Source: a virus. Taken from it: DNA of 64,000 nucleotides. Every line of letters starts with the position of its first letter. Positions within the stretch are counted from its first letter, which is position 1. The stretch is taken from IMG/VR virus record IMGVR_UViG_3300038393_001317; one strand, given 5' to 3'. The notes below the pieces were generated by a model. It worked only from the letters and a program-made list of their open reading frames with translations, ran no database searches and was not told where the DNA came from. Positions 20,545 through 43,614 of the stretch are shown piece by piece. A program made the translations under genes and the position numbers.

Positions 20545-20597
20545 GTTGGTTCGCTTCGGGGGTACGTGTCGATCGCCTGGTGGGTAGCCAGGCGGGC

Positions 20598-29538: not shown

Positions 29539-30096
29539 TCAGTCCTTTTTCGCCATCAGGCGGCGCAGCGAGCCCTTCGCCGGCGCCGTGGACGACAGGA
29601 ACTGGTCGCGGTGCTTGATCGCCTCGCGGGCATGGTCAGGGTGCACGCCCTGGCTCGTGAAATGCTCGTGCATCTCCTCGTCGGAGCTGCTTTCGTCGTT
29701 GGCGAGCGATTGCTCCATGAGCTCGAGGTGATCGTCCGGCACCTCGGACTTCGGCTTGCCCTGGGCGCGCTCGAGGTTCTTTGCGGCGTCGGCGGCCGGG
29801 TCGGCCGGCTTCGGGATGCCACGGGCGCCCTTCACGTCGTCGTGCGGCACGTCATGCTGGTTGCCGTCCTCGCCGTGCACGTGATGGACCACGGACTTGC
29901 CGTCGCGGTGACCCATGTAGATGCCCAGGCCGTTCTTGCCCTTCTTTTCCGGGTGCGGGAAGAACACATGCTGGCCCGGCTTGTAGCCCTTCGGGTGCGC
30001 TTGCAGGTTCACCAGGCGCTCGTGGCCGGTGACAGTCGTCCCGTCCTTCTTGGTGTACGGGCCGACGTGCGACTTGAGCAGAACGATGGGCTTCAT
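29539..30096 (-). CDS. His-rich 185-aa cargo-block protein with shared N-terminal leader
   Basis: MKPIVLLKSHVGPYTKKDGTTVTGHERL...; GGAG SD. Confidence 0.75.
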   Translation of the reverse strand: MKPIVLLKSHVGPYTKKDGTTVTGHERLVNLQAHPKGYKPGQHVFFPHPEKKGKNGLGIYMGHRDGKSVVHHVHGEDGNQHDVPHDDVKGARGIPKPADPAADAAKNLERAQGKPKSEVPDDHLELMEQSLANDESSSDEEMHEHFTSQGVHPDHAREAIKHRDQFLSSTAPAKGSLRRLMAKKD

Positions 30097-30106
30097 GGTG
30101 ACTCCG

Positions 30107-30122
30107 ATTGTTTGGTCACGAC
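30107..30122 (-). promoter_or_regulatory. GTCGTGAC-CA-AACAAT box, overlaps TGA of upstream gene
   Basis: - strand GTCGTGACCAAACAATCGGAGTCACCATG. Confidence 0.45.
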
Positions 30123-30445
30123 AGCCCGGCGTCCGGGTCCTGGAGCGTGTAGACCTCGCCGTGCGCGTCGGTGACGGTCGGCCGGCCCAGGTTGAACGTG
30201 GCGTTCTGGCGGTACTCCTGGGCGGCCGCCTGCAGCGCGGCGTCCAGCGACGTGACGGCCTCGGGCGCCATGCGCGCCATGGCGTCGGGCTCCTCGTAGT
30301 CGCCGAGCAGGTGCAGGTTCTCGCGGGTGTAGAACTGCTTGAGGAGCGCCTTCACGAACCACCAGTAGGGGCCGAAATTGCGGTAGCGCCGCGGGTCCTG
30401 TTGCAGGAGCTGGAGCGTGCTTTCGGCGAATGCGCGGGCGTTCAT
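30116..30445 (-). CDS. hypothetical 109-aa protein
   Basis: ATGA overlap with the 2157-aa gene; normal composition (..FGPYWWFVKALLKQFYTRENLHLLGDYEEPD..). Confidence 0.7.
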   Translation of the reverse strand: MNARAFAESTLQLLQQDPRRYRNFGPYWWFVKALLKQFYTRENLHLLGDYEEPDAMARMAPEAVTSLDAALQAAAQEYRQNATFNLGRPTVTDAHGEVYTLQDPDAGLS

Positions 30446-33400
30446 TTGGCGGTCTCCAGGCTTTCCGCGATGAGCTCGCGCATGGTCTTTCCTGAGCTCG
30501 AGTGGTGACTCGTGTAGTAGCCGCCGTAGCCGCTGTACGGCGCGAACTTGCCGGTCAGGCCGTACTCGCGAAGCTGGTTGGGCGTCATGTCCAGGATGCC
30601 GGCCTGGTCGGCGGCATGGTGCAGGTGCTGGAGCAGGGCGCGCGAGTGGTTCCAGCCCTGCGCGAGCACGCGCACGGTCTCGGCGTCGATGTTCGCCTTG
30701 TGGTGCCGGCGGCCGCCCTCGAGCATCGCCTCCGCCAGGTCGTTGTGGCCGGACTGGAGCGCCATCTTCAACAGGGCGTTGTGCACGCTCAGGTCGTGCG
30801 CGCCGGCGATCGCGTAGTTCGAATGCTTCTTGTCGAACACCGCGGACATGGGCTTGCCCAGGTCGCCCAGGTGCCGCGCGCGCGCCCAGAGCATCGTGAG
30901 CGCTTCCTTCGGATAGCGCGCGGTCATGCCGGCGTCGCCGTACGACTCGTTGCGGCCCTCGACTTTCGCCAGCGGGTAGATGGCGTCGAACGCGTCCTTG
31001 ATCGAGCCGGCGCGGCGAATGCGCTGCATCTGCTCGGACTTCATGCGCTCCTTCGCCTCCTTCACCAGGGGCGCGTCGACGCCGTACGTGCGGGAGTCGC
31101 CGCCCAGGCGCTGGAGCGCCGCCTTGAACGGGTTAACGTGCTTCCCGTCGTAGCGCGTGCCGGCGTACTCGCGAGCCGCCGTGCTGTAGGACTTGTTGCG
31201 GCCGCGCTTGCCGCTCGACGCATGGAAGTGCGAGCCGATCTTCGCGCCGCGGCGCGCATCCATGAACGCCTGGATGGCCTTTTCCTTCGCGTCGCTGGTC
31301 GGGAGCAGGTAGTCGTGCGTGTCGTGCTTGTCGCGAGCGTGATAGCTTTCGACGGACTCGAGCGCGCCGGTCTCCTTGTTGATCATGGTCACGTCGCCGT
31401 ACGGCATCGTGAACTTGTAGTCCTTCATGCCCTGCTTGATGCGCTCCTGGAGCATGTCCTTGTTCTTGTCGATGACGGCCGTCGGCAGCGCCGCAATCTC
31501 CTCCCACTTCGAGATGCCGTCCAGCTTCTCGGCGGCCGCGGCTTCGAACTTCTCCTGGGCCTCCTTGCCTTCGGCTTCGGCGTCGTACTTGAACAGCGCG
31601 GCGTCCTTGAGCTCGTCCAGCTTGACGGTCGCTCGCTTGCCGCCCTCGAGGTCGGCGTAGCGGCGGATGGTCACGGTACCGTCGCGCATGTTGACGCCGG
31701 TGACCACGACCTTGCCCTCGCCGGGCATCTCGAGGCCGACGTTGGCCGTCAGCGTCGCGCCGGTCGCCGGGTGAATCAGCGTGTCGCTCGCGCTGTCCAG
31801 CGCGGACTTCGCCGGCCAGTACTTGTTGTTGAACAGCGACGTTTTCGCCGCCTCGATGCGATCGCGCAGCATCGTCGCCGACTTGGTTTCCTTGTTCTTG
31901 AGGGCACTGTAGCTGCGCGACAGGTCCACGAAGCGAACGAACTGCTTCTGGGCGTCGGCGCGCTGGTCGGCCTCGTACCGCTTCATGGCGGCCGACTTGT
32001 CCTCATCGAACTTCTTGCGGGCCTCGTCCGGGTCGGCCGACAGCATGATGCGCATGTCGTCCAGGGTCAGGTTGCCCTCGCGCGCCAGGTTCTCGACGCG
32101 ATCGCCGCCATTCCAGAGCAGGTCCTGCCAGTCGCGCTTGGCGTGCACGGCCTGGTAGCGGTAGCCGTCGAAACTGCCCTTCGCCAGGTACGAGTGAGTG
32201 CGCACCGACTCGTTCAGGTTGCCCTGGCGGATGCCGCGGCCCAGGCGCTGCTGCACCGTGGCCGGCTCCCAGGGAATGTCCAGCTCGTGAATGTCGGTAG
32301 TGGTCTTTTGCAGGTTCAGGCCCTCGGCCATCGTGACGTTGCCGATGACGACCTTGAGCTTGCCGGCGTTGAACTTGTCGGCGATGTTCTGGCGCTTGAC
32401 CGCGGAGCCCGCGACCTGGGCGTTGATGATGCCGATTTGCTCGCGCGGAATGCCGGCGTCGACCAGGGAGCGCACGATCTTGTCGTGCGTCGGCACCGAC
32501 TCGCAGAACACGATTTGGCCGCCCTCCTTCGCGCCGGCGACGACGTGCTTCGCCAGCTCCTCGAGCTTCGGCGATCGCGCGCCCTCGTGGCCCAGGAGCG
32601 CCAGGTCCAGGGCGGCCTTGCCCATCTTGTCCATGATGGAGAAGATGTGGCTGTCGCCCGTGGCGTCCTTCTTGCCAGACGACTCCTCGGCCAGCGCGCG
32701 CAGCTCGGCGTAGATGTTCTGTTGCGCCGGCGTCATGTCGACCAGGTGCGTCTGCTGGTCGCGCTCCGGCAGCTTGAGGCCCACGTCCTGCGCGGTGCGC
32801 CGGTCGATGAACCGGAACATGATTTCGCGCAGCTCGTCCAGGTTCTTGAACCCGGACACCACGAGCGCGTCCTCGATCGAGCCGTTCGTGCCCAGGACCT
32901 TGTCCTGCTGAAACTCGCAGAAGCGGTCCAGGAACTCCTCGCTGTTGCGGATGCCGATGTTCTCGAACGCCTCCGGCGCGATATGCGACAGCATCGAGTA
33001 AATCTCGAGCGGGCTGTTTTTCGTCGGCGTCGCCGTCAGGCCGTAGATGCCCTTGCCGTTGCCGCCGTTCTCGCGCACCCAGCGGGTCTTGAGGTTGAAG
33101 TCCAGGGCCCGGTTGGAGAGGCCCTGGCCGCCCAGGAACTTCGGGTTCTCGCCGAAGCGCGCGCGCGCCGCGTAGAGGTTTTTCTGGTGGTGCATCTCAT
33201 CGGCGATGAGCATGTCCACGCCCAGGTCATCGAACCAGATCGCGTCGGTGCGGTCGGCGAACTCGCGCTGCGCCAGGTGCTGCTCGAACTTCTCGCGGAT
33301 GGCCTTGCGCCGCTTGTCGCCGGCGTTGCCCAGGGCCTCGCCGCGCTGCACCCAGAAGTCCTCGCCGTAGTACTTCTCCTTGGTCTCCGGATTGAGGTCG

Positions 33401-36400
33401 ACCTCCTCGAACGCCGGCTCGCTGATGAACACAAAGTCGTAGTCGTTCTGCGTCAGGTCGTGGTACTTGCGCTTGCGCTCCGCGGCGTCGTCGTCGCGGC
33501 CGACCAGCTCGCCGGCCTTGTCGCGCGCGAAGTTGGCGCCGATCGTGAGCACGCGCGAGCCCGGGAACCAGACCTGGGACTCGGCGTACCAGTTGGCGAG
33601 CACCGACTTGGGCACGACGATGATCGGGCGCTTCGCGGTGCCCTGCATCTTCGCCATACGCGCCAGGAGCAGGCCGCCCAGCGTCTTGCCCAGGCCCACG
33701 TCGTCCGCGATGATGCCCTTGCCGTCCGCCAGGCTGCGGCGCAGCGACGACCAGCGCCAGGCGCGCACGTCGCGGTCCGTCGTGAGGCCCGGCACGTCCA
33801 TGGGCTCGTCGGAAAAGTCGCGCTGCACGAAGCCGCGGAACTTGCGGTTGTAAAGGTCCTCGACCGCATCGCGGTACTGCGATGCGCACAGCCACTGCTT
33901 GAACTCGTCGTTCAGGCGCTCGAGCTGAGGCAGGTCCTCCTCTTTGCGCACGCCGGTGCGATTGAGGTACTTGTCCAGGAGCTTCGACGTGCCGTACTCG
34001 TTGCCGCCGCGGATGATGTAGACGCCGTCGCGGAAGGTAATCTCGACGGGCTTCTGCTTGCGCGTCCACTCGTTGGCCTGGTCGCTGTCGTACTGCTTCC
34101 AGTTGAAGAACGCCTCGACCACGTGCAGCGGCAGGAAGGCCGAATTGAGCTGGACCTCCACGTCCTCCAGGGCCTTCGGGTCGATCGCCTTCTCGAGGCG
34201 CGACACCTGGTCGGCGAGCTTGTCCTGGAGCGCGTGACCGCCGGCGAGCGCCGCCTTCGCGGCATCCAGCTTCGGCCACAGCTCGCCCGTCAGGTACATG
34301 CTCATGGGCGTCCAGCGGCCCTCGCTGACCCACGCGTAGCGCGCATCCGCGGCGAGCTGGTCCTCGACTTCGGCCAGGTCCTTGCCCAGGCGCTCGGCGA
34401 GCTCGGCGGCCGTGAAGTCCGCGGACTTCGCCTCCAGCGCCATCGCTTCGGCGGTCACGTCGAAGCCGCCCTCGAGCGCGCGCGAGCCCTTGCCCAGGAC
34501 GGCGTCGGACAGCTCGCCCTGGCGGTTGACGGCGCCGACCAGGCGGAACAGGCGCTTGTCCGACGACGCCGCGGTCATCAGGTCCTTGTTGTCGGCCGGG
34601 ATGCCATGCTTCGCCACCCAGGCGCGCACGTCGGCCTCGAGCTGCGGCCGGTTCACGGCCTGGCCGTTGAACAGGCGGTCGATTTCCGCGGCGATCGGGC
34701 CGGCGTCGGCGATCGCCGGCGCCTGCATGAACTCGTCCACGCGATGCCAGCGCGGCGGGTCGCCCTGCAAGATGTACTGCACGCCGTCGACGGTTTTCAC
34801 GTCGCCGACCTTGGCCGTCGTGAGGTACGGACGATCGCGCTGCGCGGCGTTGCGCGCACGCTCGCGCGTCTCGTCGTTCGTGATCGTCTCGAGCACCTGG
34901 TCGACCGTCAGCTCGGTCGCCGGGCGCGACTCGCTGTCCGCCGTGAAGGCCGCCAGGGCCTCGGGCACACCGGCCATGGAGCCGTTGACGGTAATGTCGT
35001 TGCCCATGCCGGCCTGGGCGCGCCAGCCCGGGCCCATGGTGCCGAGAATGTTCGCGGCGCCGCGGCCGGTGAAGTACGAACCGGCGATGAACTCCTCGTC
35101 CCAGACGCCCAGCTTCTTGAGCGCGGCCTGGTCGTCGGCGACCTTGTCGTCCAGGACGTTGAGCGCCTGGCCGACGGCGTCGGGCCGCTTGCGGAAGTAC
35201 ACCACGTCGGTGGTCACTTCGGTATGCGAGTGCTCGAACGCGGTGTTCGGCATGCGCTGGGCGCCCAGGAACTCGGCGCGGCACAGCCAGCCCTGGCGCA
35301 TCGAGCGCGCGGAGCTCGAGTCCAGGATGCCGGTCGGCACGACCAGGGCGATGATGCCGCCGGGCTTCGCCTTGTCGATCGCGGTGTCCACGAAGTACTG
35401 CTCCGCGGTGCCGATTTGCTTCTTGTCGTCCTTCGCCAGCATGCCGCGCGGGCCGTACGGCGGGTTGCCGATCACCACGTCGAACTGGCGGTCGTCCATG
35501 GTTGCGAAGCGCTCGAACGCCGCGGTGTGCACCTCATGGCGATCGCCATGCAGCACGGTCGCGACGGTCGCGCTCACCGGGTCGAGCTCGACGCCGGTGA
35601 CCTTGAAGCCGGCGGGCGCGGTATGCAGGAACACGCCGGTGCCGCACGACGGCTCGAGGGCGTCGCCGTGCGTGATGCCCAGGGAGCCGATGACTTCCCA
35701 CATGGCGCGGGTTACGTCCGGGTCGGTGTAGTACTCGTTCAGGCTGTCGCCGCATCCGCCGTTGCCGCTGTACTGACGCATGAGCGCGCGGTCGGCGCCG
35801 TCGTACGGGCCGCCCTGGGCGATGCGTGCCGCCACCTGGTTGTTGATCGAGCGGCGGTCGGCCTTGCTGATGCCGGCCGCCACGCCGAAGGGGGCCGAGC
35901 GGTCGTGCGTGTCGATCGCCGGCGTCTCGGGTTCCGCGGGTTTCGTTTCAGCCGGCGGGGGATTCGTCTCGCCTTTGGGCGCTTTCGTTGCGCGCTTCGG
36001 CTTCTTGTCCTTGCCCTTGAAGTAGTCGCGGTACGCGCGGCCGAAATGCTTCTGGGCGTCCAGCTCCTCCTGGAGCGTCGTGCGCTGGCCCGACATGAGG
36101 TTCATGCGCAGGTCGCCGCTGCCGGCCAGAATCTCGTCCTTCTGCTTGCCCAGGCGATCGCGCAGGCCCGTCAGCGTCTCGAGGTGCCCGGCGAGCTCGT
36201 CCAGCTTGGCGGCGTGCTTCTTGAACTCCGCGCGATGCGCGCCGACGGCGCCCTCGAACTGGCCCTCGCGGACCACGTCCGGTACCGGCGCCTTGCGCTG
36301 CGACTCGAGGCCGGCTTCGGCCTCGCGCATGGCCGTCTCGGCCTTGTTCTTTTTCGAGTGCGTGCGCTCCATCTCGGCGCGCACCTTGCCCATCTCGTGG

Positions 36401-36915
36401 TAGTGGGTCTCGTGTTGCGTGCGGTGCAGCTCGAGCCAGCGCCGGCGATCGGCGTCGCTCAGGCCGCGCAGCGACTGGCGCGGCGTCGGCGCCGGGTGCT
36501 CGTCGTCGGTCGATCGCCGCTCCTCATCCCCAGTGTTTTCAACGACTTGCGCGGGTTCGGCCGCTGCAGGCGCAGGCGACGGCGTGAACATATCCGGCAC
36601 GGGCGCCGGCGCCGGCGCAACGCCCGGGAACTGCGCGGCGACCTGCTCGGGCGTGATGCCGCCCAGCTTCGCCATCTCGACGTACAGCCGCTGCTGGTGC
36701 GCCGCGGACATGGACGACAGCGTGCGCGTCATGCCGGCGACGCCGCCGTGCTTGTCGATGAACGCTTGCAGCCGGCCGTGATGCGCTGGGTGAACACCCT
36801 TCTTGCGCATCGCGGTGTGCTCCGGGATGACAACGCCGTCCTTGCGCACGTGCGTCGCCACTCGCACGGGCGTGTCGAACAGGGCCAGTTGGGATTTCTG
36901 GAAAAGGATGATCAT
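30442..36915 (-). CDS. 2157-aa N6-adenine-type (NPPY) DNA methyltransferase + SNF2/DExH helicase protein (P1 DarB-like architecture)
   Basis: Motif I LEPSCGTGVFL and motif IV VVIGNPPYGP (about nt 35176-35793). Helicase IIADDVGLGKT, MLIADEMHHQKN, LTATPTKNSPLE, QIVFCES...VIGNVTMAEGLNLQ...QQRLGRGIRQGN (about nt 32176-33783). Confidence 0.9.
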   Translation of the reverse strand: MIILFQKSQLALFDTPVRVATHVRKDGVVIPEHTAMRKKGVHPAHHGRLQAFIDKHGGVAGMTRTLSSMSAAHQQRLYVEMAKLGGITPEQVAAQFPGVAPAPAPVPDMFTPSPAPAAAEPAQVVENTGDEERRSTDDEHPAPTPRQSLRGLSDADRRRWLELHRTQHETHYHEMGKVRAEMERTHSKKNKAETAMREAEAGLESQRKAPVPDVVREGQFEGAVGAHRAEFKKHAAKLDELAGHLETLTGLRDRLGKQKDEILAGSGDLRMNLMSGQRTTLQEELDAQKHFGRAYRDYFKGKDKKPKRATKAPKGETNPPPAETKPAEPETPAIDTHDRSAPFGVAAGISKADRRSINNQVAARIAQGGPYDGADRALMRQYSGNGGCGDSLNEYYTDPDVTRAMWEVIGSLGITHGDALEPSCGTGVFLHTAPAGFKVTGVELDPVSATVATVLHGDRHEVHTAAFERFATMDDRQFDVVIGNPPYGPRGMLAKDDKKQIGTAEQYFVDTAIDKAKPGGIIALVVPTGILDSSSARSMRQGWLCRAEFLGAQRMPNTAFEHSHTEVTTDVVYFRKRPDAVGQALNVLDDKVADDQAALKKLGVWDEEFIAGSYFTGRGAANILGTMGPGWRAQAGMGNDITVNGSMAGVPEALAAFTADSESRPATELTVDQVLETITNDETRERARNAAQRDRPYLTTAKVGDVKTVDGVQYILQGDPPRWHRVDEFMQAPAIADAGPIAAEIDRLFNGQAVNRPQLEADVRAWVAKHGIPADNKDLMTAASSDKRLFRLVGAVNRQGELSDAVLGKGSRALEGGFDVTAEAMALEAKSADFTAAELAERLGKDLAEVEDQLAADARYAWVSEGRWTPMSMYLTGELWPKLDAAKAALAGGHALQDKLADQVSRLEKAIDPKALEDVEVQLNSAFLPLHVVEAFFNWKQYDSDQANEWTRKQKPVEITFRDGVYIIRGGNEYGTSKLLDKYLNRTGVRKEEDLPQLERLNDEFKQWLCASQYRDAVEDLYNRKFRGFVQRDFSDEPMDVPGLTTDRDVRAWRWSSLRRSLADGKGIIADDVGLGKTLGGLLLARMAKMQGTAKRPIIVVPKSVLANWYAESQVWFPGSRVLTIGANFARDKAGELVGRDDDAAERKRKYHDLTQNDYDFVFISEPAFEEVDLNPETKEKYYGEDFWVQRGEALGNAGDKRRKAIREKFEQHLAQREFADRTDAIWFDDLGVDMLIADEMHHQKNLYAARARFGENPKFLGGQGLSNRALDFNLKTRWVRENGGNGKGIYGLTATPTKNSPLEIYSMLSHIAPEAFENIGIRNSEEFLDRFCEFQQDKVLGTNGSIEDALVVSGFKNLDELREIMFRFIDRRTAQDVGLKLPERDQQTHLVDMTPAQQNIYAELRALAEESSGKKDATGDSHIFSIMDKMGKAALDLALLGHEGARSPKLEELAKHVVAGAKEGGQIVFCESVPTHDKIVRSLVDAGIPREQIGIINAQVAGSAVKRQNIADKFNAGKLKVVIGNVTMAEGLNLQKTTTDIHELDIPWEPATVQQRLGRGIRQGNLNESVRTHSYLAKGSFDGYRYQAVHAKRDWQDLLWNGGDRVENLAREGNLTLDDMRIMLSADPDEARKKFDEDKSAAMKRYEADQRADAQKQFVRFVDLSRSYSALKNKETKSATMLRDRIEAAKTSLFNNKYWPAKSALDSASDTLIHPATGATLTANVGLEMPGEGKVVVTGVNMRDGTVTIRRYADLEGGKRATVKLDELKDAALFKYDAEAEGKEAQEKFEAAAAEKLDGISKWEEIAALPTAVIDKNKDMLQERIKQGMKDYKFTMPYGDVTMINKETGALESVESYHARDKHDTHDYLLPTSDAKEKAIQAFMDARRGAKIGSHFHASSGKRGRNKSYSTAAREYAGTRYDGKHVNPFKAALQRLGGDSRTYGVDAPLVKEAKERMKSEQMQRIRRAGSIKDAFDAIYPLAKVEGRNESYGDAGMTARYPKEALTMLWARARHLGDLGKPMSAVFDKKHSNYAIAGAHDLSVHNALLKMALQSGHNDLAEAMLEGGRRHHKANIDAETVRVLAQGWNHSRALLQHLHHAADQAGILDMTPNQLREYGLTGKFAPYSGYGGYYTSHHSSSGKTMRELIAESLETAK

Positions 36916-36941
36916 GGGCGCGCCTGGTCCGGGTGCCCTAG

Positions 36942-36957
36942 ATCATCCTGTCACGAT
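36942..36957 (-). promoter_or_regulatory. ATCGTGAC-AG-GATGAT box variant, overlaps TGA of upstream gene
   Basis: - strand ATCGTGACAGGATGATCTAGG..., 34 nt before ATG 36915. Confidence 0.35.
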
Positions 36958-38846
36958 TGCGTGCGGTCGCTATCCTCGCGCTCGCCGGAGACCGACGCCC
37001 GGGCCTGCACCTCGGGGTCATCGAACCTGGCGGCCCAGATCGGCGCCAGGCGATCGAGGGCGCCGGCGTCGTGTTCGCGGAAACCGGCATCGAACGCGCC
37101 GTCGACGGCGTCCTCGGGACCGTTGTACGTGTAGTGCGCGCGCAACCCGCGCTCATCGAACACCTGGTAGCGGTACTTGCCCTCGTGGCTGGCGTCGGGC
37201 ATCAGCACGGCCCACTGCTTGCCGTTCTGGTGCCGCAGCTCGAAGCCGTCGCCGAACTGGCGGAAGTGCTCACGCACGGCCTCGCGCTGGGGATTGCCGC
37301 GGCGCTCGTACGGCGCCACGGGATGGCCCTCGCGGACGTAGCCGGCGACCATCGCCTTGAGCATGCCCGGCTTGTCGGCCGTCGCGCGGACCTTTTCCAC
37401 AAACTTGTCCACAGGCATGGTTACCACCTCTCCCAGGAACCGCGGGTCGTCGTAGTGCATGAGGTAGGCCGCGCGGGCCTGCTTTTCCGACAGGAAGCCG
37501 GCCATGACCTTGTCCTCGTCGTAGCGGCGCCAGGCCGACGCGGAAGGCGCGCCGTGCTTGCGTTGCCGCACGATGTAGACGTTCGGAGCGAAGGCCAGCG
37601 ACGGCCCCAGGTACACGTCGACCTCGTCGCCGTCGGCGCCCATCGAGTCCTCGAAGAACCCGTAGTCGTAGCGCATCTTGGTCGCGCCGCCAGGCCAGCG
37701 GCGGGTCGAGCCGGCCGGGTTTTCCACACGAACGGTGAGCCCGCGCCACTGCACGCGGGGCTTGAAGTACTCGCCCGACTTCGCCTGGGCGGCCGTCGGC
37801 GGCGTCCAGCCCTGAGCGAACAGGTCGACGTGGTGCACGGGCGCCGTGAAGAACCCGACCTGCTCGTCGCCGTCGTCCAGGATGGCCTTCGCCAGCACGG
37901 GCTCGAGGTCGCCGCCGTACTTCTTGGGCACGACGCGCGACAGAATCTCCTTGATCTTGTCGAACTTGGTCGGGCCCGACAGGCCGCCGAGCTCGTGCAG
38001 CTTCGAGCGCATCACGTTCGCGTCCGCGGTCACGCCCGGCACGTCGGAGACGTAGCACTCGCGAATGACCTCCATGCGCTCCTCGAACCGCGGCGAGCTC
38101 ACCGCGCCCAGGATATGCAGGCGGTCGGGCAGGTAGTCGCCGGACAGGAGCTCGCGCAGGTCCGCGCCGCTCATGGCGGCCGCGGCCGACGGGATGCCGA
38201 CGACGAAGTCGGTACCGCCCAGCGCCGCGGCGACGCGATCGTAGGCTTCGCGCTGGTTCAGCGGCCCGCGCTGGAAGGGGACGATGACCTCGTGTCCGGC
38301 CTCCATCCACTCCTGGATTTGCTCGGCGTGCTCCTCGATCAGCTCGAGCGTCGCGACCTGGTCGCCGATCACGTCCGGCGCCACCATCATGAGCAGGTTG
38401 CGGTACCGGTACGGCGTCTCCTCGCAGATGCGGCGCGACAGCTCCGAGTACTTCGCGAACACCGGCCCGAAGTTGATGCGCGCGTTCTCCGGCTTGCCGG
38501 CGCGCATCGCCGCCTTGAACGCATTGAAGGCGCCGGAGTCCACGAACACCGGCTTTTTCTCGCGGCGGATGGCTTCGGCGATGCGGTCCATGCCGAACGA
38601 CGACAGCTCGCCGATTTCCGTGCCCAGGCCGGCCGGCGACTCGATCGCCGCCTCCATGTCGCGCCGGCGACTCATGCCGGACGCGTACGGGAACGGCGTC
38701 ACCTGGTCGCCGCCGGTGGGCTCGCGCAGCTCGAGCGACACCTGGGCGGGCTTCGCTGACGGCCGCTTGTCGTCGTGCGCGCGCACCACGGTGCCGTCCT
38801 TCTTGGTGTAGCCCTTGACGTGGGCCTTCGCCAACACAATCAGCAT
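36951..38846 (-). CDS. 631-aa cargo-block protein: leader + possible TGT/DpdA-like barrel + inorganic-pyrophosphatase-like domain
   Basis: Start trimmed to ATG 38846 (AAGGA SD), giving MLIVLAKAHVKGYTKKDGTVVRAHDDKRP. PVFVDSGAFNAF resembles the DSGxF motif of transglycosylases. VENPAGSTRR...YDYGFFEDSMGADGDEVDVYLGP resembles the family I PPase YGF..DGDP.DV motif. Confidence 0.8.
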   Translation of the reverse strand: MLIVLAKAHVKGYTKKDGTVVRAHDDKRPSAKPAQVSLELREPTGGDQVTPFPYASGMSRRRDMEAAIESPAGLGTEIGELSSFGMDRIAEAIRREKKPVFVDSGAFNAFKAAMRAGKPENARINFGPVFAKYSELSRRICEETPYRYRNLLMMVAPDVIGDQVATLELIEEHAEQIQEWMEAGHEVIVPFQRGPLNQREAYDRVAAALGGTDFVVGIPSAAAAMSGADLRELLSGDYLPDRLHILGAVSSPRFEERMEVIRECYVSDVPGVTADANVMRSKLHELGGLSGPTKFDKIKEILSRVVPKKYGGDLEPVLAKAILDDGDEQVGFFTAPVHHVDLFAQGWTPPTAAQAKSGEYFKPRVQWRGLTVRVENPAGSTRRWPGGATKMRYDYGFFEDSMGADGDEVDVYLGPSLAFAPNVYIVRQRKHGAPSASAWRRYDEDKVMAGFLSEKQARAAYLMHYDDPRFLGEVVTMPVDKFVEKVRATADKPGMLKAMVAGYVREGHPVAPYERRGNPQREAVREHFRQFGDGFELRHQNGKQWAVLMPDASHEGKYRYQVFDERGLRAHYTYNGPEDAVDGAFDAGFREHDAGALDRLAPIWAARFDDPEVQARASVSGEREDSDRTQS

Positions 38847-40012
38847 GGTCCGTCCTTCTCGCCGAACGCGCCGGCCGGCAGCTTCCACTGGTCCGGCGGC
38901 ACGACGATCGGCCCCGTCCAGGTCTTGGAATTGCCCAGCGCCGCCACCTCGGGCTGGTCGATCGCCGCCTGGTACGCGCGGCCCTTGCCGGCGCGCGTCA
39001 TCAGGTCCTCCTTGCGGTGGATGGTCACGCCGAACTCGCGCTCGCGCTGCGCCACCTTGCCGGTCTCGTTCGGGTACAGCTTGTGGTTCGTCGCAATCTG
39101 ATTCGGGCCGGCGAAGATGCAATTCCGGCACGACAGGCGGCCGTAGCCGAGCTGATACGACGGGTGCGGCACGACGCCGTGCTTGCGCATCACGTCCCAC
39201 ACCTGGGCCTCACTCCAGCCGTGCACCGGCCGGTAGTGGTCGACGTGGCGCGTCGAGCTGTGCGCGCGATCGGGCTCGAACGCCTTGTAGTTCGCGCGGT
39301 TGGAGCTCTCCTCGGCGCGCTCGCCGGTCACGATCAGCGTGCGCTTGCCGGTGAACCGTTCCTGGTTCCGGACGGCCGCGGCCATCACGTCGACCTTGAG
39401 GGCGCCGCTGCACCAGCGCGTCGTGAGGTTGGCGGACTGCTGGGGGAATTTCCTGCGCGTGCCCAGCGGTCCATGTTCGCCGCCAGCGCGCCCGCGGGTT
39501 CCGTCCGGCTTCTCGAAGATGACCGGCGCGGTGCGCTGGTTCTCGCGCAGCATCTCGCGCTCGAAGCCGCCCTCGCGCCAGGAGAAGTAAATCGGGACGC
39601 CCAGGGCCTCCGCGATCTTCCGGCAGTAGTCTTTGGTGATCGGCCAGTCCATGAAGGACGCGCCCTCACCGTCAATGTCGTGATGGTGCAGCTCGATCTT
39701 CGCCGGCGGCACGCCGTTCTCGAGGAGCGCCAGGACGCAGGCGATGCTGTCCTTGCCGCCGCTGAATCCGACCAGGACCTTGTCGTAGCTGGCGAGGTCG
39801 GGCCCGGGCGCGATCGCGACCGCGGAGCCGTGAGCTGAGATGGAAAACACCTTGGGCGCATGCTCCTCGAACAGGTCGCGCTGCTTCGCCTGGTCGGCGG
39901 TCACGGCCGGCGGCGGCCGCGGCGTCGGGCGCTTGTCCTGGTGCGGCGCCACCGCGGTGCCGTCGCGCTTGACGTAGCCCTTCACGTGGGTCTTGAGCAG
40001 GAGCACGGTCAT
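38840..40012 (-). CDS. PP-loop ATPase / PAPS-reductase-like protein with shared leader
   Basis: Start trimmed to ATG 40012 (ATGA overlap with MuF stop), giving MTVLLLKTHVKGYVKRDGTAVAPHQDKRP. PP-loop VLVGFSGGKDSIA. Later TTRWCSGALK and SCRNCIF. Confidence 0.8.
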   Translation of the reverse strand: MTVLLLKTHVKGYVKRDGTAVAPHQDKRPTPRPPPAVTADQAKQRDLFEEHAPKVFSISAHGSAVAIAPGPDLASYDKVLVGFSGGKDSIACVLALLENGVPPAKIELHHHDIDGEGASFMDWPITKDYCRKIAEALGVPIYFSWREGGFEREMLRENQRTAPVIFEKPDGTRGRAGGEHGPLGTRRKFPQQSANLTTRWCSGALKVDVMAAAVRNQERFTGKRTLIVTGERAEESSNRANYKAFEPDRAHSSTRHVDHYRPVHGWSEAQVWDVMRKHGVVPHPSYQLGYGRLSCRNCIFAGPNQIATNHKLYPNETGKVAQREREFGVTIHRKEDLMTRAGKGRAYQAAIDQPEVAALGNSKTWTGPIVVPPDQWKLPAGAFGEKDGPC

Positions 40013-41157
40013 TTGGACCCCAGCGTGTTGCGCAGCCACTCGGCGAACTTCGGGTCGTCGCCGGCCTGCTCGGCGATCGTCGGAACCCAGCGGCCGCGGC
40101 AGTGCGGGTGCTGCGTTCCTGCAGCCGGCCACCACAGCTCGTGCGGCTCGCGCTCGATCAACAGGCCGCCCAGGCGCTTGTGCAGCGCCGCGCTCCGGCC
40201 GACGTTCGTCTTGCCGGGCCAAATGTCGGTCTGGCCGTTCTTGTGAATGTCGCCGGCGCCGACGACGTTCATGACCCGCCCGTCAATCGTGCGGCAAAAC
40301 TTACACGCGCCCTTGTACTGCTCGATGCGCTTCACGCGCGCGCCGTGCGGCAGGCTGGCGATGTAGCCCTGGTTCTGGGCCTCGACGGTTTCGGTCACGG
40401 CGATGCGACGCCAGTCGCGATTGAGCTGCGCGAACTGGTCGCCGAGCTTGGTCTCGAGCGCGCCGGCGAGCGGAGCGTCGCCCAGGTGCACGGCATTGAC
40501 GTGTTGTGCGATCGTCTGGCGCATGCGGTGCCGCACGTCGTTCGAGACCTCGCGCACGTTCTCGGCCGTGCTGGCGATCGCGTACTCGAGGCCGGCGCGC
40601 TGCGGCCGCGTGAACGGGAACAGGTCGATCGCCGCCTGGGCGGTGAGCGGCAGCGCCGCGATGACCTGGTCGGCCTGGGCCGCGGTGACCTGGTCCATGT
40701 TGGCCTGCACGCGGCCCATGATCGTCGCGCGCGTCGCCAGCCACTCGGCCTCCGCGCGCATGTCGTCCGCCGGCAGGTAGCGCTGCGTCAGCCAGTCGAC
40801 CATCATCATGTGGTCCTCGAGGGTCCACTCGCCAGGCGGCAGGTGCTCGAGGTACAGCTTCACCAGGTCCAGCTCGCCGCGCGACCAGCGCTCCATGACG
40901 CCGGCGGGCCGCGCGACGCGGTCCATACCGGGTCGATGCCGGGCGCCGTCGGACCACGCCTTGAGCTCGCGACGGAACGCCTCGAGTCGATCGAGACCGC
41001 GTTGCGTGAACAGCTCCACCAGGCGCGCGACGAACGGGTTGTCGACGGGGAGCCAAATGTCCTCGCCGTTGTGGTCGTGGATGGCCTTGTAGATCAGGTT
41101 GAGCGCCATGTCCGTCTGTTCGGCGGATAGCGGCTCGAGGTCGACAAACAGGCCCAT
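40009..41157 (-). CDS. MuF / SPP1 gp7-like minor head protein
   Basis: RIAVTETVEAQNQGY, CKFCRTIDGRV and GTQHPHCRGRW match the Mu F-family pattern as I know it. Confidence 0.75.
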   Translation of the reverse strand: MGLFVDLEPLSAEQTDMALNLIYKAIHDHNGEDIWLPVDNPFVARLVELFTQRGLDRLEAFRRELKAWSDGARHRPGMDRVARPAGVMERWSRGELDLVKLYLEHLPPGEWTLEDHMMMVDWLTQRYLPADDMRAEAEWLATRATIMGRVQANMDQVTAAQADQVIAALPLTAQAAIDLFPFTRPQRAGLEYAIASTAENVREVSNDVRHRMRQTIAQHVNAVHLGDAPLAGALETKLGDQFAQLNRDWRRIAVTETVEAQNQGYIASLPHGARVKRIEQYKGACKFCRTIDGRVMNVVGAGDIHKNGQTDIWPGKTNVGRSAALHKRLGGLLIEREPHELWWPAAGTQHPHCRGRWVPTIAEQAGDDPKFAEWLRNTLGSK

Positions 41158-41869: not shown

Positions 41870-42115
41870 CTACTCGGCCGCCGAAGCGACCGGAGCTTTG
41901 TCTTTTTCGGCGCCGTCGGCCGGCTCACCCATCAGCTCCTTGGCTTCCGCCTCGCTGATTTCGTGACCCCAGTCGACGCCCTTGTCCTTGCTGCCCATGT
42001 AGGGCACGAACTCGCCCTTCGACGGGCTCCAAACCTCGACCGGGTTCCCGCGAGCGGGACCGCGGAACAGCGCGCCCTCGTTCTCGATGTAGACCATGTT
42101 CGGGTTCTCGTTCAC
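41870..42115 (-). CDS. 81-aa protein translationally coupled to the RelA/SpoT-like gene (possible immunity/antitoxin)
   Basis: GTG start in a GTGA overlap with the upstream stop (42112-42115); acidic, normal composition. Confidence 0.6.
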   Translation of the reverse strand: MNENPNMVYIENEGALFRGPARGNPVEVWSPSKGEFVPYMGSKDKGVDWGHEISEAEAKELMGEPADGAEKDKAPVASAAE

Positions 42116-43614
42116 TTTGCTTTCCTAACCAACATGATCATTTTCGATGAAGTCTGGGATTTTTGCAAGGGCCGCTCGTCGCTTTTTTGCGACGCGCCCG
42201 GCTTGCCGTCCTTGCCGGCGGGTTTCGCCTCCGGCTGAGCGCCGGCCGTGGCCTGGGCCCAGGCTTTGCCGTACAGGTCCTTCTGCTCTTTCAGCGCCTC
42301 GTAGAACTTGGTGTGGTCCTCGTCGGACCAGGCGTCCGTGGGCGCCGGCTCGTTGTACTTCGCGCGCAGCGATCGACACACGCCGTAGGCATGGTGACCG
42401 TGGTCTTTCGCCAGGGTCATCGCCTTCACATGCACCTGGAGCTCGGCGAGCATGCCGTTGGGCAGCTTCACGATCGTCATTGCGTCGCGGTAGCCCTCGC
42501 TGGTCGGCTCCGCGAACCGGTCCTTGGGTTGCTGCGCCAGCTCGACGCCGGACTCTTTCAGCTTGGCGAGCGCCGTTTTCACGTCCGCCATCGTCGGCAC
42601 GCTGATCGTCGCGCGGACAATGTCGCGGAGCTGCGACCAGTCGCCGTCGTAGTCGGCCATGACCTTTTCCTTCGCGCGCGACTCGCTTTTCAGCGGCGCC
42701 ACGAACACGAAGCCCTGCTCGCTGGCCCAGTCCTCGGGCGTGAGGTCGTCGGGCCGCTTGCCCTCGACCAGGCCCATGGACTTCGCGATGCCGGACAGTT
42801 GCTCCTTGAACTGGTTCAGGCCCTCGGTGCCGTGCTTGACCAGGTCCTCCCAGGTCTTGTGCGGCTGGTTCACCTTCTTGGGCAGCTTCGCGGTCTCGGC
42901 CTGGTCGAACACGGCGTCGCCCTTCGCCGGCGGCTCACCGGCGTCCGCGGCCGGCCGCGCCTCGTGCGGCGAGCTCGTCGGCTTGCCGCCGCCTTCCCAG
43001 TGGTGCGTCACGGCGCCGTGGCGGACGCGATGCTCGCCGCCGGCGTCGTCCTTCACGGTGACGCCATGCTGGCCGGCGGCCGTCACCTGGCCGTGCCCGC
43101 GGTGCGCGCCGTTCACGAAGCCGACATGCCGGCCGGGTTGCGCCGGCGCGGCCGCCTGGTCGGTGCTGACCCAGCGCTGCGTCTGCACGCCGTTCTTGTC
43201 GGTGACCTGCTTCTTGACCAGGCCCGGTCGGTTCGCGAGCGGCCCGCCCTTGAACAGGAGCACGGGGCGGCGCGGGTCAAAGGCTTTCGCGATCACGAGC
43301 GGGTCCTCTTTTGCCTCGTTGGGCGTTGCGACGTAGCGGCGCCGGCCGGCCTGGTCCTGGAGGAGCATGCCGTCCTCGCCCTGGTCGATGATTTGGCCGC
43401 GGATGGCGACGCGCGACTTGTGGCCCAGGACCTTGTCCCAGGTGATCTTGTGGTGGGCGCCGTCAATCTCGCCGGTGACGCCATGCTTGCCGTGCGCGGC
43501 GACGCGGCACGTGCACGGCTGGCCCTCGTGGTGGACGTACAGCTCGTCGCCGACCTCCACACCAGGCCGGCGCTCCGGCTCCTTCTGGGTCTTGCCCGGG
43601 GCCTTCGGCGTCAT
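42112..43614 (-). CDS. 500-aa protein with C-terminal RelA/SpoT (RSH) nucleotidyltransferase-like domain
   Basis: PLKSESRAKEKV...LRDIVRATISV...SEGYRDAMTIVKLPNGMLAELQVHVKAMTLAKDHGHHAY (about nt 42280-42852). N-terminus has two HG(K/Q)HGVTG-type repeats. ATGA overlap with portal stop. Confidence 0.75.
   Translation of the reverse strand: MTPKAPGKTQKEPERRPGVEVGDELYVHHEGQPCTCRVAAHGKHGVTGEIDGAHHKITWDKVLGHKSRVAIRGQIIDQGEDGMLLQDQAGRRRYVATPNEAKEDPLVIAKAFDPRRPVLLFKGGPLANRPGLVKKQVTDKNGVQTQRWVSTDQAAAPAQPGRHVGFVNGAHRGHGQVTAAGQHGVTVKDDAGGEHRVRHGAVTHHWEGGGKPTSSPHEARPAADAGEPPAKGDAVFDQAETAKLPKKVNQPHKTWEDLVKHGTEGLNQFKEQLSGIAKSMGLVEGKRPDDLTPEDWASEQGFVFVAPLKSESRAKEKVMADYDGDWSQLRDIVRATISVPTMADVKTALAKLKESGVELAQQPKDRFAEPTSEGYRDAMTIVKLPNGMLAELQVHVKAMTLAKDHGHHAYGVCRSLRAKYNEPAPTDAWSDEDHTKFYEALKEQKDLYGKAWAQATAGAQPEAKPAGKDGKPGASQKSDERPLQKSQTSSKMIMLVRKAK

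What the first reader, a model, noticed from the sequence alone, without database searches (positions are those of the whole stretch)
30022..40012. Shared N-terminal ~25-aa leader (I/V)(V/L)L(L/A)K(S/T/A)HV(K/G)(G/P)Y(T/V)K(K/R)DGTxVxxH on consecutive cargo proteins: candidate capsid-targeting / processing signal
Three proteins start almost identically after start-site trimming: MKPIVLLKSHVGPYTKKDGTTVTGHERL (185 aa, 30096), MTVLLLKTHVKGYVKRDGTAVAPHQDKRP (PP-loop protein, 40012) and MLIVLAKAHVKGYTKKDGTVVRAHDDKRP (631 aa, 38846). Weaker versions occur at the N-terminus of the 2157-aa protein (MIILFQKSQLALFDTPVRVATHVRKDGVVIPEH), inside the RSH protein (PVLLFKGGPLANRPGLVKKQVTDKNGVQTQRW, nt about 43165-43272) and possibly in the 1525-aa protein (RWITVHPNG...). 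The enzymatic bodies that follow are unrelated to each other. By analogy with known capsid-targeting sequences that the prohead protease removes (for example on T4 internal proteins), this could be a packaging or ejection tag, or a docking peptide for MuF or portal.
Basis: partly seen in the sequence, partly recalled or inferred. Interest (0 to 1): 0.75.

Follow-up and report, generated by a model that had tools for sequence, protein, structure and literature searches.

The report
Shared leader tags phage capsid cargo
Four unrelated enzymes of this ~98-kb phage, and hundreds elsewhere, start with the same ~28-residue peptide, which is most likely the address-and-cut label for loading anti-host enzymes into the phage head, though no experiment has tested this yet.

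Summary
Three minus-strand genes (185-aa, PP-loop and InPase proteins) start with hhhLK[AST]HVxxY[TV]K[KR]DGTxVxxH. The DarB-like giant carries a split version. Shuffled controls never come close.

The window is an uncultured relative of Bordetella phage PHB04. The tagged genes lie between the portal and the head protease, next to a MuF-like protein and a DarB/Ulx pair.

The leader is not part of any enzyme domain and has no Pfam, NCBIfam or PDB match. A profile finds 935 protein clusters, almost all viral. In them it precedes InPase, ART, NUDIX, HD, Acb1, Zeta toxin, RadC and GNAT bodies.

New here: the leader is not only N-terminal. It also marks domain junctions in polyvalent proteins, and many proteins end with its first half.

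Its core, [LMI]-x-K-[SA], is strongly enriched in the scaffold, protease, capsid-protein propeptide and portal tails. That is the pattern expected of a head-protease cut site.

Best reading: a modular capsid-cargo tag made of an anchor strand, a cut site and a β-hairpin. It resembles the T4 and P1 capsid-targeting signals in function but not in sequence.

Support is circumstantial: gene context, and a GenBank 'particle associated' label in a related Yersinia phage. No cleavage or packaging data exist.

The parts
30013..30096 (-). Leader of the 185-aa protein (MKPIVLLKSHVGPYTKKDGTTVTGHERL): hydrophobic strand, K|S, β-hairpin
   Evidence: Regex and HMM, 51 bits. GGAG RBS. Exact JGI gene call.
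36817..36915 (-). Split leader of the 2157-aa DarB-like methylase-helicase (MIILFQK|SQLALFDTPVRVATHVRKDGVVIPEH), with a QLALFD insert at 36874-36894
   Evidence: Regex. The same split form in 6 homologues. DarB-like and N6_Mtase+SNF2 assignments.
38760..38846 (-). Leader of the 631-aa InPase protein (MLIVLAKAHVKGYTKKDGTVVRAHDDKRP)
   Evidence: HMM 57 bits. AF2 predicts residues 8-26 as a β-hairpin with pLDDT 92 at residues 11-20.
39926..40012 (-). Leader of the 390-aa PP-loop / PAPS-reductase-like protein (MTVLLLKTHVKGYVKRDGTAVAPHQDKRP). Its ATG overlaps the stop codon of the MuF-like gene (ATGA).
   Evidence: HMM 53 bits..
37296..37373 (-). Internal degenerate junction copy in the InPase protein (KPGMLK|AMVAGYVREGHPVAPYERRG), just after the InPase domain
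   Evidence: Weak HMM hit. E1 site at residue 495. InPase domain at residues 353-485.
37878..37901 (-). E1 site PVLAK|AIL, just before the InPase domain
43171..43302 (-). Junction inside the 500-aa RelA/SpoT-like protein: E1 (VIAK|AF), strand (PVLLFKG), hairpin-like segment (KKQVTDKNGVQTQRW)
   Evidence: Conserved architecture in 6 homologues. Profile comparison to the leader not significant.
42115..42174 (-). C-terminal tail of the 500-aa protein: PLQK|SQTSSKMIMLVRKAK*
   Evidence: Conserved in homologues.
43614..43661 (-). Portal C-terminal tail: SLQK|SFGLPVLRIEP*
   Evidence: [ML]xK[SA]FGLPVhhIxP* is conserved in 8 diverged portals and in the Yersinia phage.
29450..29512 (-). N-terminus of the 1525-aa helicase with the first half of the leader only (PIVFLPAKPLAK|AAAIP)
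   Evidence: PHB04 homologue reads MKPILFLK|AS.
22754..23515 (-). Scaffold-like 253-aa protein with five [LM]xK|[SA]L sites (residues 40, 93, 115, 130, 147)
   Evidence: 5 observed against 0.13 expected. 4-6 sites in each of 7 homologues. 5 in PHB04 and 5 in the Yersinia phage.
22524..22619 (-). Major capsid protein N-terminal segment EELQK|ALQASNYQTDVATLTGGGALGVQSLD (putative propeptide boundary)
   Evidence: Conserved in 5 homologues and in SPO1 and phi812 capsid proteins.
23455..24381 (-). Head maturation protease. Residues 209-239 (nt 23665-23757) carry DLAK|ALEASY...TGGAALGMQSLD, a copy of the capsid-protein N-terminal segment.
   Evidence: phrog_1028. E1 sites 3 observed against 0.19 expected..
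40009..41157 (-). 382-aa MuF/gp7-like minor capsid (head morphogenesis) protein, immediately upstream of the tagged genes
   Evidence: AF2 pLDDT 86. 29 BFVD matches at E<=1e-3 to minor capsid or head morphogenesis proteins. Weak Pfam Phage_min_cap2 hit. Yersinia homologue annotated particle-associated.
30116..30445 (-). Ulx-like 109-aa protein, downstream of the DarB-like gene as in P1
   Evidence: phrog_1629, E = 1.7e-14. BLAST to P1 Ulx, E = 7e-5.

Best explanation
The leader is a modular capsid-cargo tag used by a large lineage of ~90-100-kb myoviruses (PHB04, Dolphis and fHe-Yen8-01-like phages).

Anatomy, which is shown:
- a short hydrophobic strand (hhhF/Lh);
- an invariant Lys followed by Ala, Ser or Thr;
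- a basic 19-residue β-hairpin, HVxGYT(R/K)KDGTxVxxHxDKR.

In stand-alone genes the tag is the N-terminus. In polyvalent proteins it sits at every domain junction, usually preceded by a second [LM]xK[SA] site. Many proteins, including the portal and the post-portal 500-aa protein, end with '[LM]xK[SA] + hydrophobic strand'.

Mechanism, which is inferred:
- The hydrophobic strand docks the enzyme inside the assembling procapsid. It would use the same kind of contact as the portal tail. The partner is unknown; candidates are the scaffold, the inner face of the capsid protein, the MuF-like p382 and the protease.
- The HK97-type head protease then cuts at [LMI]xK|[SA]. This is the motif that is also repeated in the scaffold and present at the capsid-protein propeptide boundary and in the protease itself.
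- Cutting frees each enzyme module from its anchor, so the modules can leave with the DNA.
- The hairpin stays on the mature N-terminus. Its role is open: recognition on the P' side of the cut, DNA tethering, or ejection.

The tag therefore marks the phage's injected anti-host arsenal. In this window that is the DarB-like methylase-helicase, the PP-loop enzyme, the InPase protein and the 185-aa protein. The RelA/SpoT-like protein and the helicase carry partial versions.
For: 1. The same leader sits on unrelated bodies.
- In the window: PAPS_reduct, InPase, N6_Mtase+SNF2 and a body of unknown family.
- In PHB04 it is on an HD_4 hydrolase instead.
- In IMG/VR loci: NUDIX, ART-PolyVal, InPase and bodies of unknown family.
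- In 76 representative proteins: InPase 17, ART-PolyVal 7, NUDIX 2, and single cases of Acb1, Zeta_toxin, RadC, GNAT and S78_2.

2. It is widespread and virus-restricted.
- 935 clusters at E<=1e-3 among 1.84 billion proteins.
- Only one weak, hairpin-only hit in 185,579 bacterial and archaeal genomes.

3. Position.
- About nine in ten single-copy hits start within the first 15 residues.
- The fetched representatives hold 103 N-terminal and 76 internal copies.
- 48 of 76 internal copies have [LMIV]xK[SAG] within 18 aa upstream, against a 9.6% background.
- 23 of 179 proteins end with the site plus a hydrophobic run.

4. Context.
- All related loci share the order portal, p500, MuF-like, cargo, DarB, Ulx, helicase, protease, scaffold, MCP.
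- p382 is MuF-like by fold.
- P1 DarB is packaged through its N-terminal 30 residues (PMC9024508).

5. The [LMI]xK[SA]h motif is enriched in head proteins.
- Scaffold 5 observed / 0.13 expected, protease 3 / 0.19, MCP 2 / 0.17, portal 2 / 0.30, p500 3 / 0.29; about zero in tail and other genes.
- Replicated in PHB04: head module 18 against 3.7 expected, other genes 4 against 2.4.
- Replicated in the Yersinia phage.
- The sites are positionally conserved in diverged homologues.
- In the leader the position after the Lys is S, A or T in 177 of 179 copies.

6. In Yersinia phage fHe-Yen8-01 the leader-bearing gp131 and the ART gp129 (which starts MLVLAKA) are annotated 'phage particle associated protein'.

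7. AF2 predicts a confident hairpin (pLDDT 92) and an unpaired hydrophobic N-terminal segment.

8. Conservation is at the peptide level, not the DNA level.
Against: - There is no direct evidence that any window protein is packaged or cut.
- The 'particle associated' label in the Yersinia record also covers methyltransferases and the terminase, so it is not specific. I could not read the underlying proteomics.
- The leader has no sequence similarity to the proven T4 or P1 targeting signals.
- Some genes in the cargo cluster lack it: Ulx, the 81-aa protein, and PHB04's NinI-like phosphatase.
- One leader gene of PHB04 (gp049) lies outside the head module.
- The hairpin half also occurs as tandem repeats in small signal-peptide-bearing bacterial proteins, so it may have a function unrelated to capsids.
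- Copies within one protein are hardly more alike than copies from different proteins (0.64 against 0.60). There is thus no clear co-evolution signal with a phage-specific receptor.
- The protease specificity K|[SA] is inferred from motif enrichment and from my recollection that HK97 gp5 is cut at K103|S104. It has not been measured for this protease family, which has no Pfam or PDB match.
Confidence: 0.55

Rival explanations
1. The element is only a processing linker. It would be the head-protease recognition site that separates the domains of polyvalent cargo proteins. On stand-alone genes it would be an inherited remnant with no role in targeting, and packaging would depend on something else, for example MuF-like p382 or co-assembly.
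For: - Internal and C-terminal copies, with enrichment of the upstream [LM]xK[SA] site.
- The same motif in the scaffold, MCP and protease.
- In the Dolphis, ST4 and Yersinia group the hydrophobic strand shrinks to 'DLMK|AHV' or 'MLK|AQI', while the K[AS] and the hairpin stay.
Against: - The full 28-residue leader, including the hairpin, is under strong purifying selection at the N-terminus of hundreds of single-domain proteins, where no domain needs separating.
- Portal and p500 tails keep a conserved strand after the putative cut. A bare cleavage site would not need that.
Confidence: 0.2
2. The hairpin acts after or during ejection, not in assembly. As a basic β-hairpin it could tether each enzyme to the packaged DNA so that the enzyme is co-ejected, or bind a host component. 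The often adjacent QLxLFD motif would add recruitment to the host β sliding clamp.
For: - The hairpin is an autonomous unit that also occurs in non-phage secreted proteins.
- It is Lys/Arg-rich.
- Q..LF follows 19 of 179 leaders within 40 aa, against a background of about 2% per 40 aa. It is also built into every DarB-like leader examined.
- Leader copies show no phage-specific co-variation.
Against: - This does not explain the hydrophobic strand.
- It does not explain the invariant K[AS] shared with scaffold, MCP and protease sites.
- It does not explain the strand-only copies on the portal, p500 and the helicase.
- Enzymes such as NUDIX, InPase and ART have no obvious need for DNA or clamp binding.
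Confidence: 0.12
3. The leader is a generic structural N-terminal cap or oligomerisation element of these enzymes, unrelated to the virion.
For: AF2 gives a confident stand-alone hairpin.
Against: - The bodies are structurally unrelated: Rossmann-like PP-loop, OB-fold InPase, NUDIX, HD, ART.
- The element is virus-restricted.
- It is tied to the head-morphogenesis module.
Confidence: 0.05
4. The element is a DNA-level recombination linker. Conserved boundary DNA would promote shuffling of cargo modules, and the peptide would be incidental.
For: - Modules are clearly shuffled between phages.
- Junction copies often retain a Met, as if genes had been fused.
Against: - The window leaders share only 55-69% DNA identity, with synonymous differences and no long exact repeat.
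- Conservation follows amino-acid properties across genomes ranging from 50% to 68% GC.
Confidence: 0.03

Closest known systems
T4 capsid targeting sequence (CTS) of internal proteins IPI-III / Alt, removed by the gp21 prohead protease
   Same: - A short N-terminal peptide shared by unrelated packaged and injected proteins.
- It contains the same protease motif that is used on the scaffold and the capsid protein.
- The cargo is anti-host enzymes.
   Different: - No sequence similarity.
- The T4 CTS is about 10 residues and ends in L/I-x-E. Here the tag is about 28 residues with K|[AS] and a retained β-hairpin.
- Here the tag also occurs at internal junctions and at C-termini.
- The protease is of a different, HK97-like type.
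- Nothing has been tested experimentally here.
P1 DarB N-terminal 30-residue capsid targeting signal (Gonzales et al. 2022, PMC9024508), with Ulx
   Same: - The window has a DarB homologue (methylase plus SF2 helicase) followed by an Ulx homologue.
- In P1 the N-terminus of DarB is necessary and sufficient for packaging.
   Different: - The P1 N-terminus (MNKLSMGVFRCSSVSEILKY...) is unrelated.
- The window DarB has about 330 extra N-terminal residues.
- The P1 paper found no shared signal among Dar proteins, whereas here one signal is shared by many cargo proteins.
- There are no DarA, Hdf or DdrA/B homologues here.
Propeptides of ejection and inner-body proteins in giant phages phiKZ and SPN3US (PMC10052503, PMC7411985)
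   Same: Many head-internal, ejected proteins are cut by the prohead protease at one consensus motif that is shared with the capsid and scaffold proteins.
   Different: - The motif there is A/S/G-x-E and the protease is T4 gp21-like.
- The propeptides are long and not mutually similar.
- No conserved hairpin remains on the mature protein.
Polyvalent proteins and MuF-fused effectors (Iyer et al. 2017, PMC5512222)
   Same: - Same effector repertoire (InPase, ART-PolyVal, RelA/SpoT, methylase-helicase dyad, RadC).
- Same portal-linked gene context.
- Many leader-bearing proteins are polyvalent.
   Different: - That work proposes processing by built-in zincin metallopeptidases. It does not describe this junction/leader motif in its main text, and no LPD or other Pfam family matches it.
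- In the window the domains are mostly split into separate genes, each with its own leader.
- The MuF-like protein is a separate gene.
Encapsulin cargo-loading peptides
   Same: A short terminal peptide shared by unrelated enzymes that directs them into an HK97-fold shell.
   Different: - Usually C-terminal, unrelated in sequence, and not cleaved.
- The shell is not a virus.

Membership tests
T4-type capsid targeting sequence | Short N-terminal peptide shared by several unrelated head-internal proteins | tested here: met
   Four window proteins and hundreds elsewhere. The bodies are unrelated.
T4-type capsid targeting sequence | Ends in the prohead-protease consensus that is also used on the scaffold and the capsid protein | tested here: inconclusive
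   The [LMI]xK[SA] motif is shared with the scaffold, MCP, protease and portal, and is enriched there. No cleavage data exist.
T4-type capsid targeting sequence | Sufficient to direct a foreign protein into the capsid | not testable with these tools
   Needs leader-reporter fusions in PHB04 or fHe-Yen8-01.
P1 DarB capsid targeting signal | Sequence related to the first 30 residues of P1 DarB | tested here: not met
   The P1 N-terminus is unrelated. The BLAST alignment to P1 DarB starts at window residue 333.
P1 Dar system | darB-ulx gene pair encoding a methylase-helicase and Ulx | tested here: met
   phrog_10089 / phrog_11801 and phrog_1629. tblastn and BLASTP to P1.
P1 Dar system | DarA, Hdf, DdrA and DdrB partners | tested here: not met
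   No BLASTP match below E = 0.09.
Polyvalent-protein effector arsenal (Iyer 2017) | Effector domains of that repertoire encoded next to the portal and head genes | tested here: met
   InPase, RelA_SpoT (26.9 bits against a cutoff of 27), N6_Mtase+SNF2 and ART-PolyVal in relatives.
Polyvalent-protein effector arsenal (Iyer 2017) | Built-in zincin metallopeptidase for processing | tested here: not met
   No peptidase domain in the window cargo proteins. Among 76 representatives only one S78_2 hit.
Any curated protein family or solved structure | Profile match of the leader itself | tested here: not met
   Pfam at E<=10: none. NCBIfam: none. PDB profile search at E<=10: none.
MuF / SPP1 gp7 minor capsid protein (for p382) | Fold and sequence of the head morphogenesis domain | tested here: met
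   29 BFVD structural matches at E<=1e-3, named minor capsid or head morphogenesis. The Pfam Phage_min_cap2 hit is only E = 0.065. No PDB match.
β sliding-clamp binding motif (for QLALFD) | QL[SD]LF-like pentapeptide in a disordered region | tested here: inconclusive
   The pattern is present and enriched after leaders. Binding cannot be tested here.

The most novel reading that the evidence does not exclude
A simple, sequence-readable grammar — [LM]xK|[SA], hydrophobic anchor strand, K|[AS], β-hairpin — would let an abundant lineage of ~90-100-kb myoviruses load any enzyme into the capsid. It would do so by mimicking the portal's own C-terminal tail, and the head protease would then excise the anchor. 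Polyvalent proteins would be cut into separate injected effectors without any built-in peptidase. On this reading the tag defines the complete injected arsenal from sequence alone (Acb1, ARTs, NUDIX, alarmone synthetase, InPase, PP-loop enzyme, DarB). The hairpin left on each mature N-terminus would be a second signal, for DNA tethering or ejection.
Probability: 0.35. Interest if true: 0.8.

Novelty: new variant of a known kind. Interest (0 to 1): 0.62.

Why it matters
If the tag works as proposed, several things follow.

- **Reading injected proteins from sequence.** Proteins a phage injects ahead of gene expression could be identified from the genome alone, in a lineage that is common in metagenomes. 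That lineage has 1249 MuF-like homologues and 935 leader clusters. Injected proteins are the first line of counter-defence, for example anti-restriction DarB, anti-CBASS Acb1, ADP-ribosyltransferases, NUDIX and pyrophosphatase enzymes, and an alarmone synthetase. They are otherwise hard to recognise.
- **Processing of polyvalent proteins.** It would explain how polyvalent proteins that lack their own peptidase are cut into working pieces.
- **Portal recruitment.** It would link cargo loading to the way the portal itself is recruited into the procapsid.
- **Protein delivery.** It would give a short portable peptide for loading foreign proteins into phage heads in Bordetella, Pseudomonas, Yersinia and Aeromonas hosts.

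The idea is directly testable, because PHB04, Dolphis, ST4 and fHe-Yen8-01 are all cultured.

Tried and rejected
- **Pfam and NCBIfam on the leader alone.** No match, so it is not part of a described domain.
- **PDB profile search with the leader.** Nothing.
- **P1 DarB N-terminus.** Unrelated. Other P1 Dar and head proteins have no homologues here.
- **The search for homologous proteins with a leader profile.** It returned only 59-81-aa proteins, because of the tool's word index. This exposed the small secreted proteins with two hairpin repeats, but was useless for counting phage proteins. The exhaustive representative search replaced it.
- **hhalign of the p500 junction against the leader.** Not significant, probability 2%. 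The insertion defeats the alignment, so homology of that copy rests on shared architecture only.
- **Co-evolution test.** Within-protein identity of leader copies is 0.64 against 0.60 between proteins. There is no useful signal. The impression from locus L021, with four near-identical leaders, does not generalise.
- **DNA-repeat or gene-conversion explanation.** Rejected by codon comparison.
- **Prophage origin.** The genome-contig scan found one weak hairpin-only hit, in Janthinobacterium.
- **Literature.** No paper in the library describes the motif or the fHe-Yen8-01 proteome. I found no published cleavage site for a related capsid protein.
- **Protease family.** No Pfam or PDB hit; only a PHROG annotation.
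- **Foldseek of p382 against PDB.** Nothing significant. Only the viral library was informative.

Full report
**What the window is**

The window is 68% G+C. Nearly all its genes are on the minus strand. Exact look-ups place its proteins on a 98,168-bp JGI metagenome contig.

Its closest cultured relative is Bordetella phage vB_BbrM_PHB04 (94 kb), with the same gene order. The minus-strand genes of interest are:

| Coordinates | Product | Evidence |
|---|---|---|
| 43611-45368 | portal | |
| 42112-43614 | 500-aa protein with a borderline RelA/SpoT domain | |
| 41870-42115 | 81-aa protein | |
| 40009-41157 | 382-aa protein | see below |
| 38840-40012 | PP-loop / PAPS-reductase-like protein | |
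| 36951-38846 | 631-aa InPase protein | |
| 30442-36915 | 2157-aa DarB-like methylase-helicase | |
| 30116-30445 | Ulx-like protein | |
| 29539-30096 | 185-aa protein | |
| 24935-29512 | 1525-aa helicase | |
| 23455-24381, 22754-23515, 21207-22712 | head protease, scaffold-like protein, major capsid protein | |

The 382-aa protein folds with pLDDT 86. It matches 29 viral 'minor capsid / head morphogenesis' models at E<=1e-3, so it is the MuF/gp7-like protein of this phage.

**Check of the observation**

- [KR][KR]DG[TSV].[VI]..H occurs four times in all six frames, always within 35 residues of a minus-strand start codon.
- An HMM of 21 leaders scores the three canonical copies at 51-57 bits. 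Twenty shuffles of all window ORF segments never exceed 12 bits.
- The trimmed starts are right. They have an RBS or an ATGA overlap. GC3 shows that another frame is coding upstream. JGI's gene calls give exactly these proteins.
- The DarB-like N-terminus is a split version that is conserved in six homologues.
- The copy inside the RelA/SpoT-like protein has a conserved architecture in six homologues. It is not provable by profile comparison.
- The helicase has only the first half. 'RWITVHPNG' is unrelated.
- A degenerate copy sits after the InPase domain, at nt 37296-37373.
- DNA identity among the leaders is 55-69% with synonymous changes. Selection therefore acts on the peptide.

**What the leader is not**

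It matches no Pfam, NCBIfam or PDB entry. It precedes unrelated folds:

- PAPS_reduct, InPase and N6_Mtase+SNF2 in the window;
- HD_4 in PHB04, and NUDIX and ART-PolyVal in IMG/VR loci;
- InPase, ART-PolyVal, NUDIX, DUF6900, Acb1, Zeta_toxin, RadC, GNAT and S78_2 among 76 representatives, about half of which have no family at all.

**Distribution**

- A degenerate-DNA scan of IMG/VR found 22 loci. All belong to the PHB04-like lineage.
- tblastn against isolated phages found the leader in a sister group of 90-95-kb myoviruses: Yersinia fHe-Yen8-01, Aeromonas ST4, Pseudomonas Dolphis, Jeremy and Touem01, and E. coli ECML-606-1. These share the portal, MuF-like protein, protease, scaffold and capsid protein.
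- An exhaustive profile search of 1.84 billion representatives gives 935 proteins at E<=1e-3 and 119 at E<=1e-10.
- The scan of one genome per bacterial or archaeal species found a single weak hairpin-only hit. The tag is essentially viral and not from prophages.

**Anatomy**

Across 179 copies the Lys is invariant. The next residue is S (87), A (71) or T (19), followed by H (145) and V or I (170). The four residues before the Lys are hydrophobic.

AlphaFold2 on a 46-sequence leader alignment predicts a two-stranded hairpin over residues 8-26, with pLDDT 92 around GYTKKDGT. Residues 1-7 have no intramolecular partner.

The hairpin alone also occurs twice in tandem in 72-81-aa bacterial proteins that carry a signal peptide. 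The hairpin is thus an autonomous unit, whereas the strand-Lys part was found only in the viral sequences examined.

**The main new finding**

The element is not just an N-terminal leader.

- In long polyvalent proteins it recurs 2-6 times, at domain boundaries.
- Internal copies look like N-termini, for example ...PAMIK ALLLKTHVNGYTKKDGT... In 48 of 76 of them a second [LMIV]xK[SAG] lies within 18 residues upstream, against a background of 9.6%.
- 23 of 179 proteins end with that site plus a hydrophobic run, for example ...PAMIKALLLVRKR* and ...ITKSLPVLFIAP*.
- The same '[LM]xK[SA] + strand' forms the conserved C-terminal tail of the portal, SLQKSFGLPVLRIEP*, in eight diverged phages. It also forms the tail of the post-portal 500-aa protein.

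The short motif [LMI]xK[SA]h is strongly enriched in head proteins:

| Protein (window) | Observed | Expected |
|---|---|---|
| scaffold | 5 | 0.13 |
| protease | 3 | 0.19 |
| capsid protein | 2 | 0.17 |
| p500 | 3 | 0.29 |
| portal | 2 | 0.30 |
| InPase protein (sites flank the InPase domain) | 2 | 0.23 |
| tail and other genes | near zero | |

The enrichment repeats in PHB04 (head module 18 against 3.7; other genes 4 against 2.4) and in the Yersinia phage.

The scaffold sites keep their positions in seven homologues although the surrounding sequence has drifted. The capsid protein keeps ELQK|ALQAS about 20 residues before its conserved TGGGALxVQSLD segment. The equivalent K|[AS] is present in the SPO1 and phi812 capsid proteins.

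This is the pattern expected of a prohead-protease cleavage motif. From memory, HK97 gp5 is cut at K103|S104; I could not verify a cleavage site for this protease family in the library.

**Mechanism proposed**

Shown:
- a conserved tripartite peptide (strand, K[AST], hairpin) at N-termini, junctions and, as its first half, C-termini of unrelated enzymes encoded with the head genes;
- the K[SA] motif shared with the scaffold, capsid protein, protease and portal.

Inferred:
- the strand anchors cargo in the procapsid, possibly through the contact used by the portal tail;
- the protease cuts at K|[SA], which frees the modules and dismantles the scaffold;
- the hairpin stays on the mature protein.

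Support from outside the window:
- P1 DarB is packaged through its N-terminal 30 residues, although the sequence there is unrelated.
- The GenBank record of Yersinia phage fHe-Yen8-01 labels the leader-bearing gp131, the ART gp129 and the MuF-like gp002 as particle-associated. That label is also given to methyltransferases and the terminase, so it is weak evidence.

**Rivals**

- A pure processing linker without a targeting role.
- A post-ejection role of the basic hairpin, such as DNA tethering. Clamp recruitment through the frequently adjacent QLxLFD motif would be an added feature.
- A structural cap of the enzymes.
- A DNA-level recombination linker, rejected.

None of these explains all of the strand, the invariant Lys, the hairpin and the head-module context as well as the cargo-tag model does. 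The first two cannot be excluded without experiments.

**Comparison with what is known, and verdict**

In function the closest systems are the T4 capsid targeting sequence, the P1 DarB signal and the propeptides of phiKZ/SPN3US ejection proteins. Membership in any of them by sequence fails.

The effector repertoire is that of the polyvalent proteins of Iyer et al. 2017. The main text of that paper does not describe this element and proposes zincin peptidases for processing.

I rate the finding a new variant of a known kind: real, widespread, undescribed in the curated libraries I could search, mechanistically plausible and readily testable, but so far supported only by comparative evidence.

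Noticed in passing
window 735-742, 9906-9913, 24396-24403, 29527-29534, 30115-30122, 41172-41179, 45383-45390, 49107-49114, 49563-49570, 50200-50207, 57681-57688 (all minus strand): The 8-mer GTCGTGAC occurs 11 times, always on the coding (minus) strand. About 4.5 are expected on both strands together, and only 1 of 100 shuffles reaches 11. At nearly every site it lies 12-20 nt upstream of a gene start, including those of the portal, the MuF-like gene, the 185-aa gene, the helicase and the protease. It is a candidate late-promoter or operator element. A similar sequence precedes a leader gene in locus L014.
   Followed up: partly
window 36874-36894 (-); also PHB04 gp027 and gp049, and loci L015, L016, L020, L022, L009: A Q-L-[AS]-L-F-D-x-P motif resembles the bacterial β sliding-clamp binding pentapeptide QL[SD]LF. 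It is built into every DarB-like leader examined. It follows 19 of 179 leaders within 40 residues, about five times the background. If the leader is cut at FQK|S, the motif would sit at the very N-terminus of mature DarB.
   Followed up: partly
window 23665-23757 (-) compared with 22524-22619 (-): The head protease carries, near residue 217, a copy of the capsid protein's N-terminal segment (DLAK|ALEASYATD..TGGAALGMQSLD against ELQK|ALQASNYQTD..TGGGALGVQSLD). In the Yersinia phage the two segments are 70% identical over 30 residues. This may be how the protease is incorporated into the procapsid.
   Followed up: partly
proteins P0004, P0006-P0031; loci L018, L025, L031: Small (72-81 aa) bacterial proteins with a signal peptide consist of two tandem copies of VKGYTKKDGTVVKGYTRK, the hairpin half of the leader. 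They have no Pfam or NCBIfam family and their function is unknown.
   Followed up: partly
window 12475-18354 (-): A 1959-aa ORF rich in Thr, Ala, Gly and Ser has many repeats of the type 'ITPSxGAVxxxGxAP', interspersed with about four repeated globular segments. It looks like a fibre or decoration protein. My GC3 filter missed it.
   Followed up: no
window 19105-20922 (-): A 605-aa protein just downstream of the capsid gene combines a class-I methyltransferase domain with an MptE-like (DUF115/Maf-type) domain. From memory, the latter is known from flagellin glycosylation enzymes. It may modify a virion protein.
   Followed up: no
representative proteins, scanned: Among the leader-bearing proteins, one carries an Acb1 (anti-CBASS nuclease) domain and one a Zeta-toxin domain. 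Under the cargo-tag reading these would be injected with the DNA rather than expressed after entry.
   Followed up: no
window 40009-41157 (-): The 382-aa MuF-like protein family is large: 1249 proteins at E<=1e-5, many on 85-98-kb contigs. This phage lineage is therefore common in metagenomes although few members are cultured.
   Followed up: partly
window 1-64000: No tRNA genes were found in the window (ARAGORN).
   Followed up: yes
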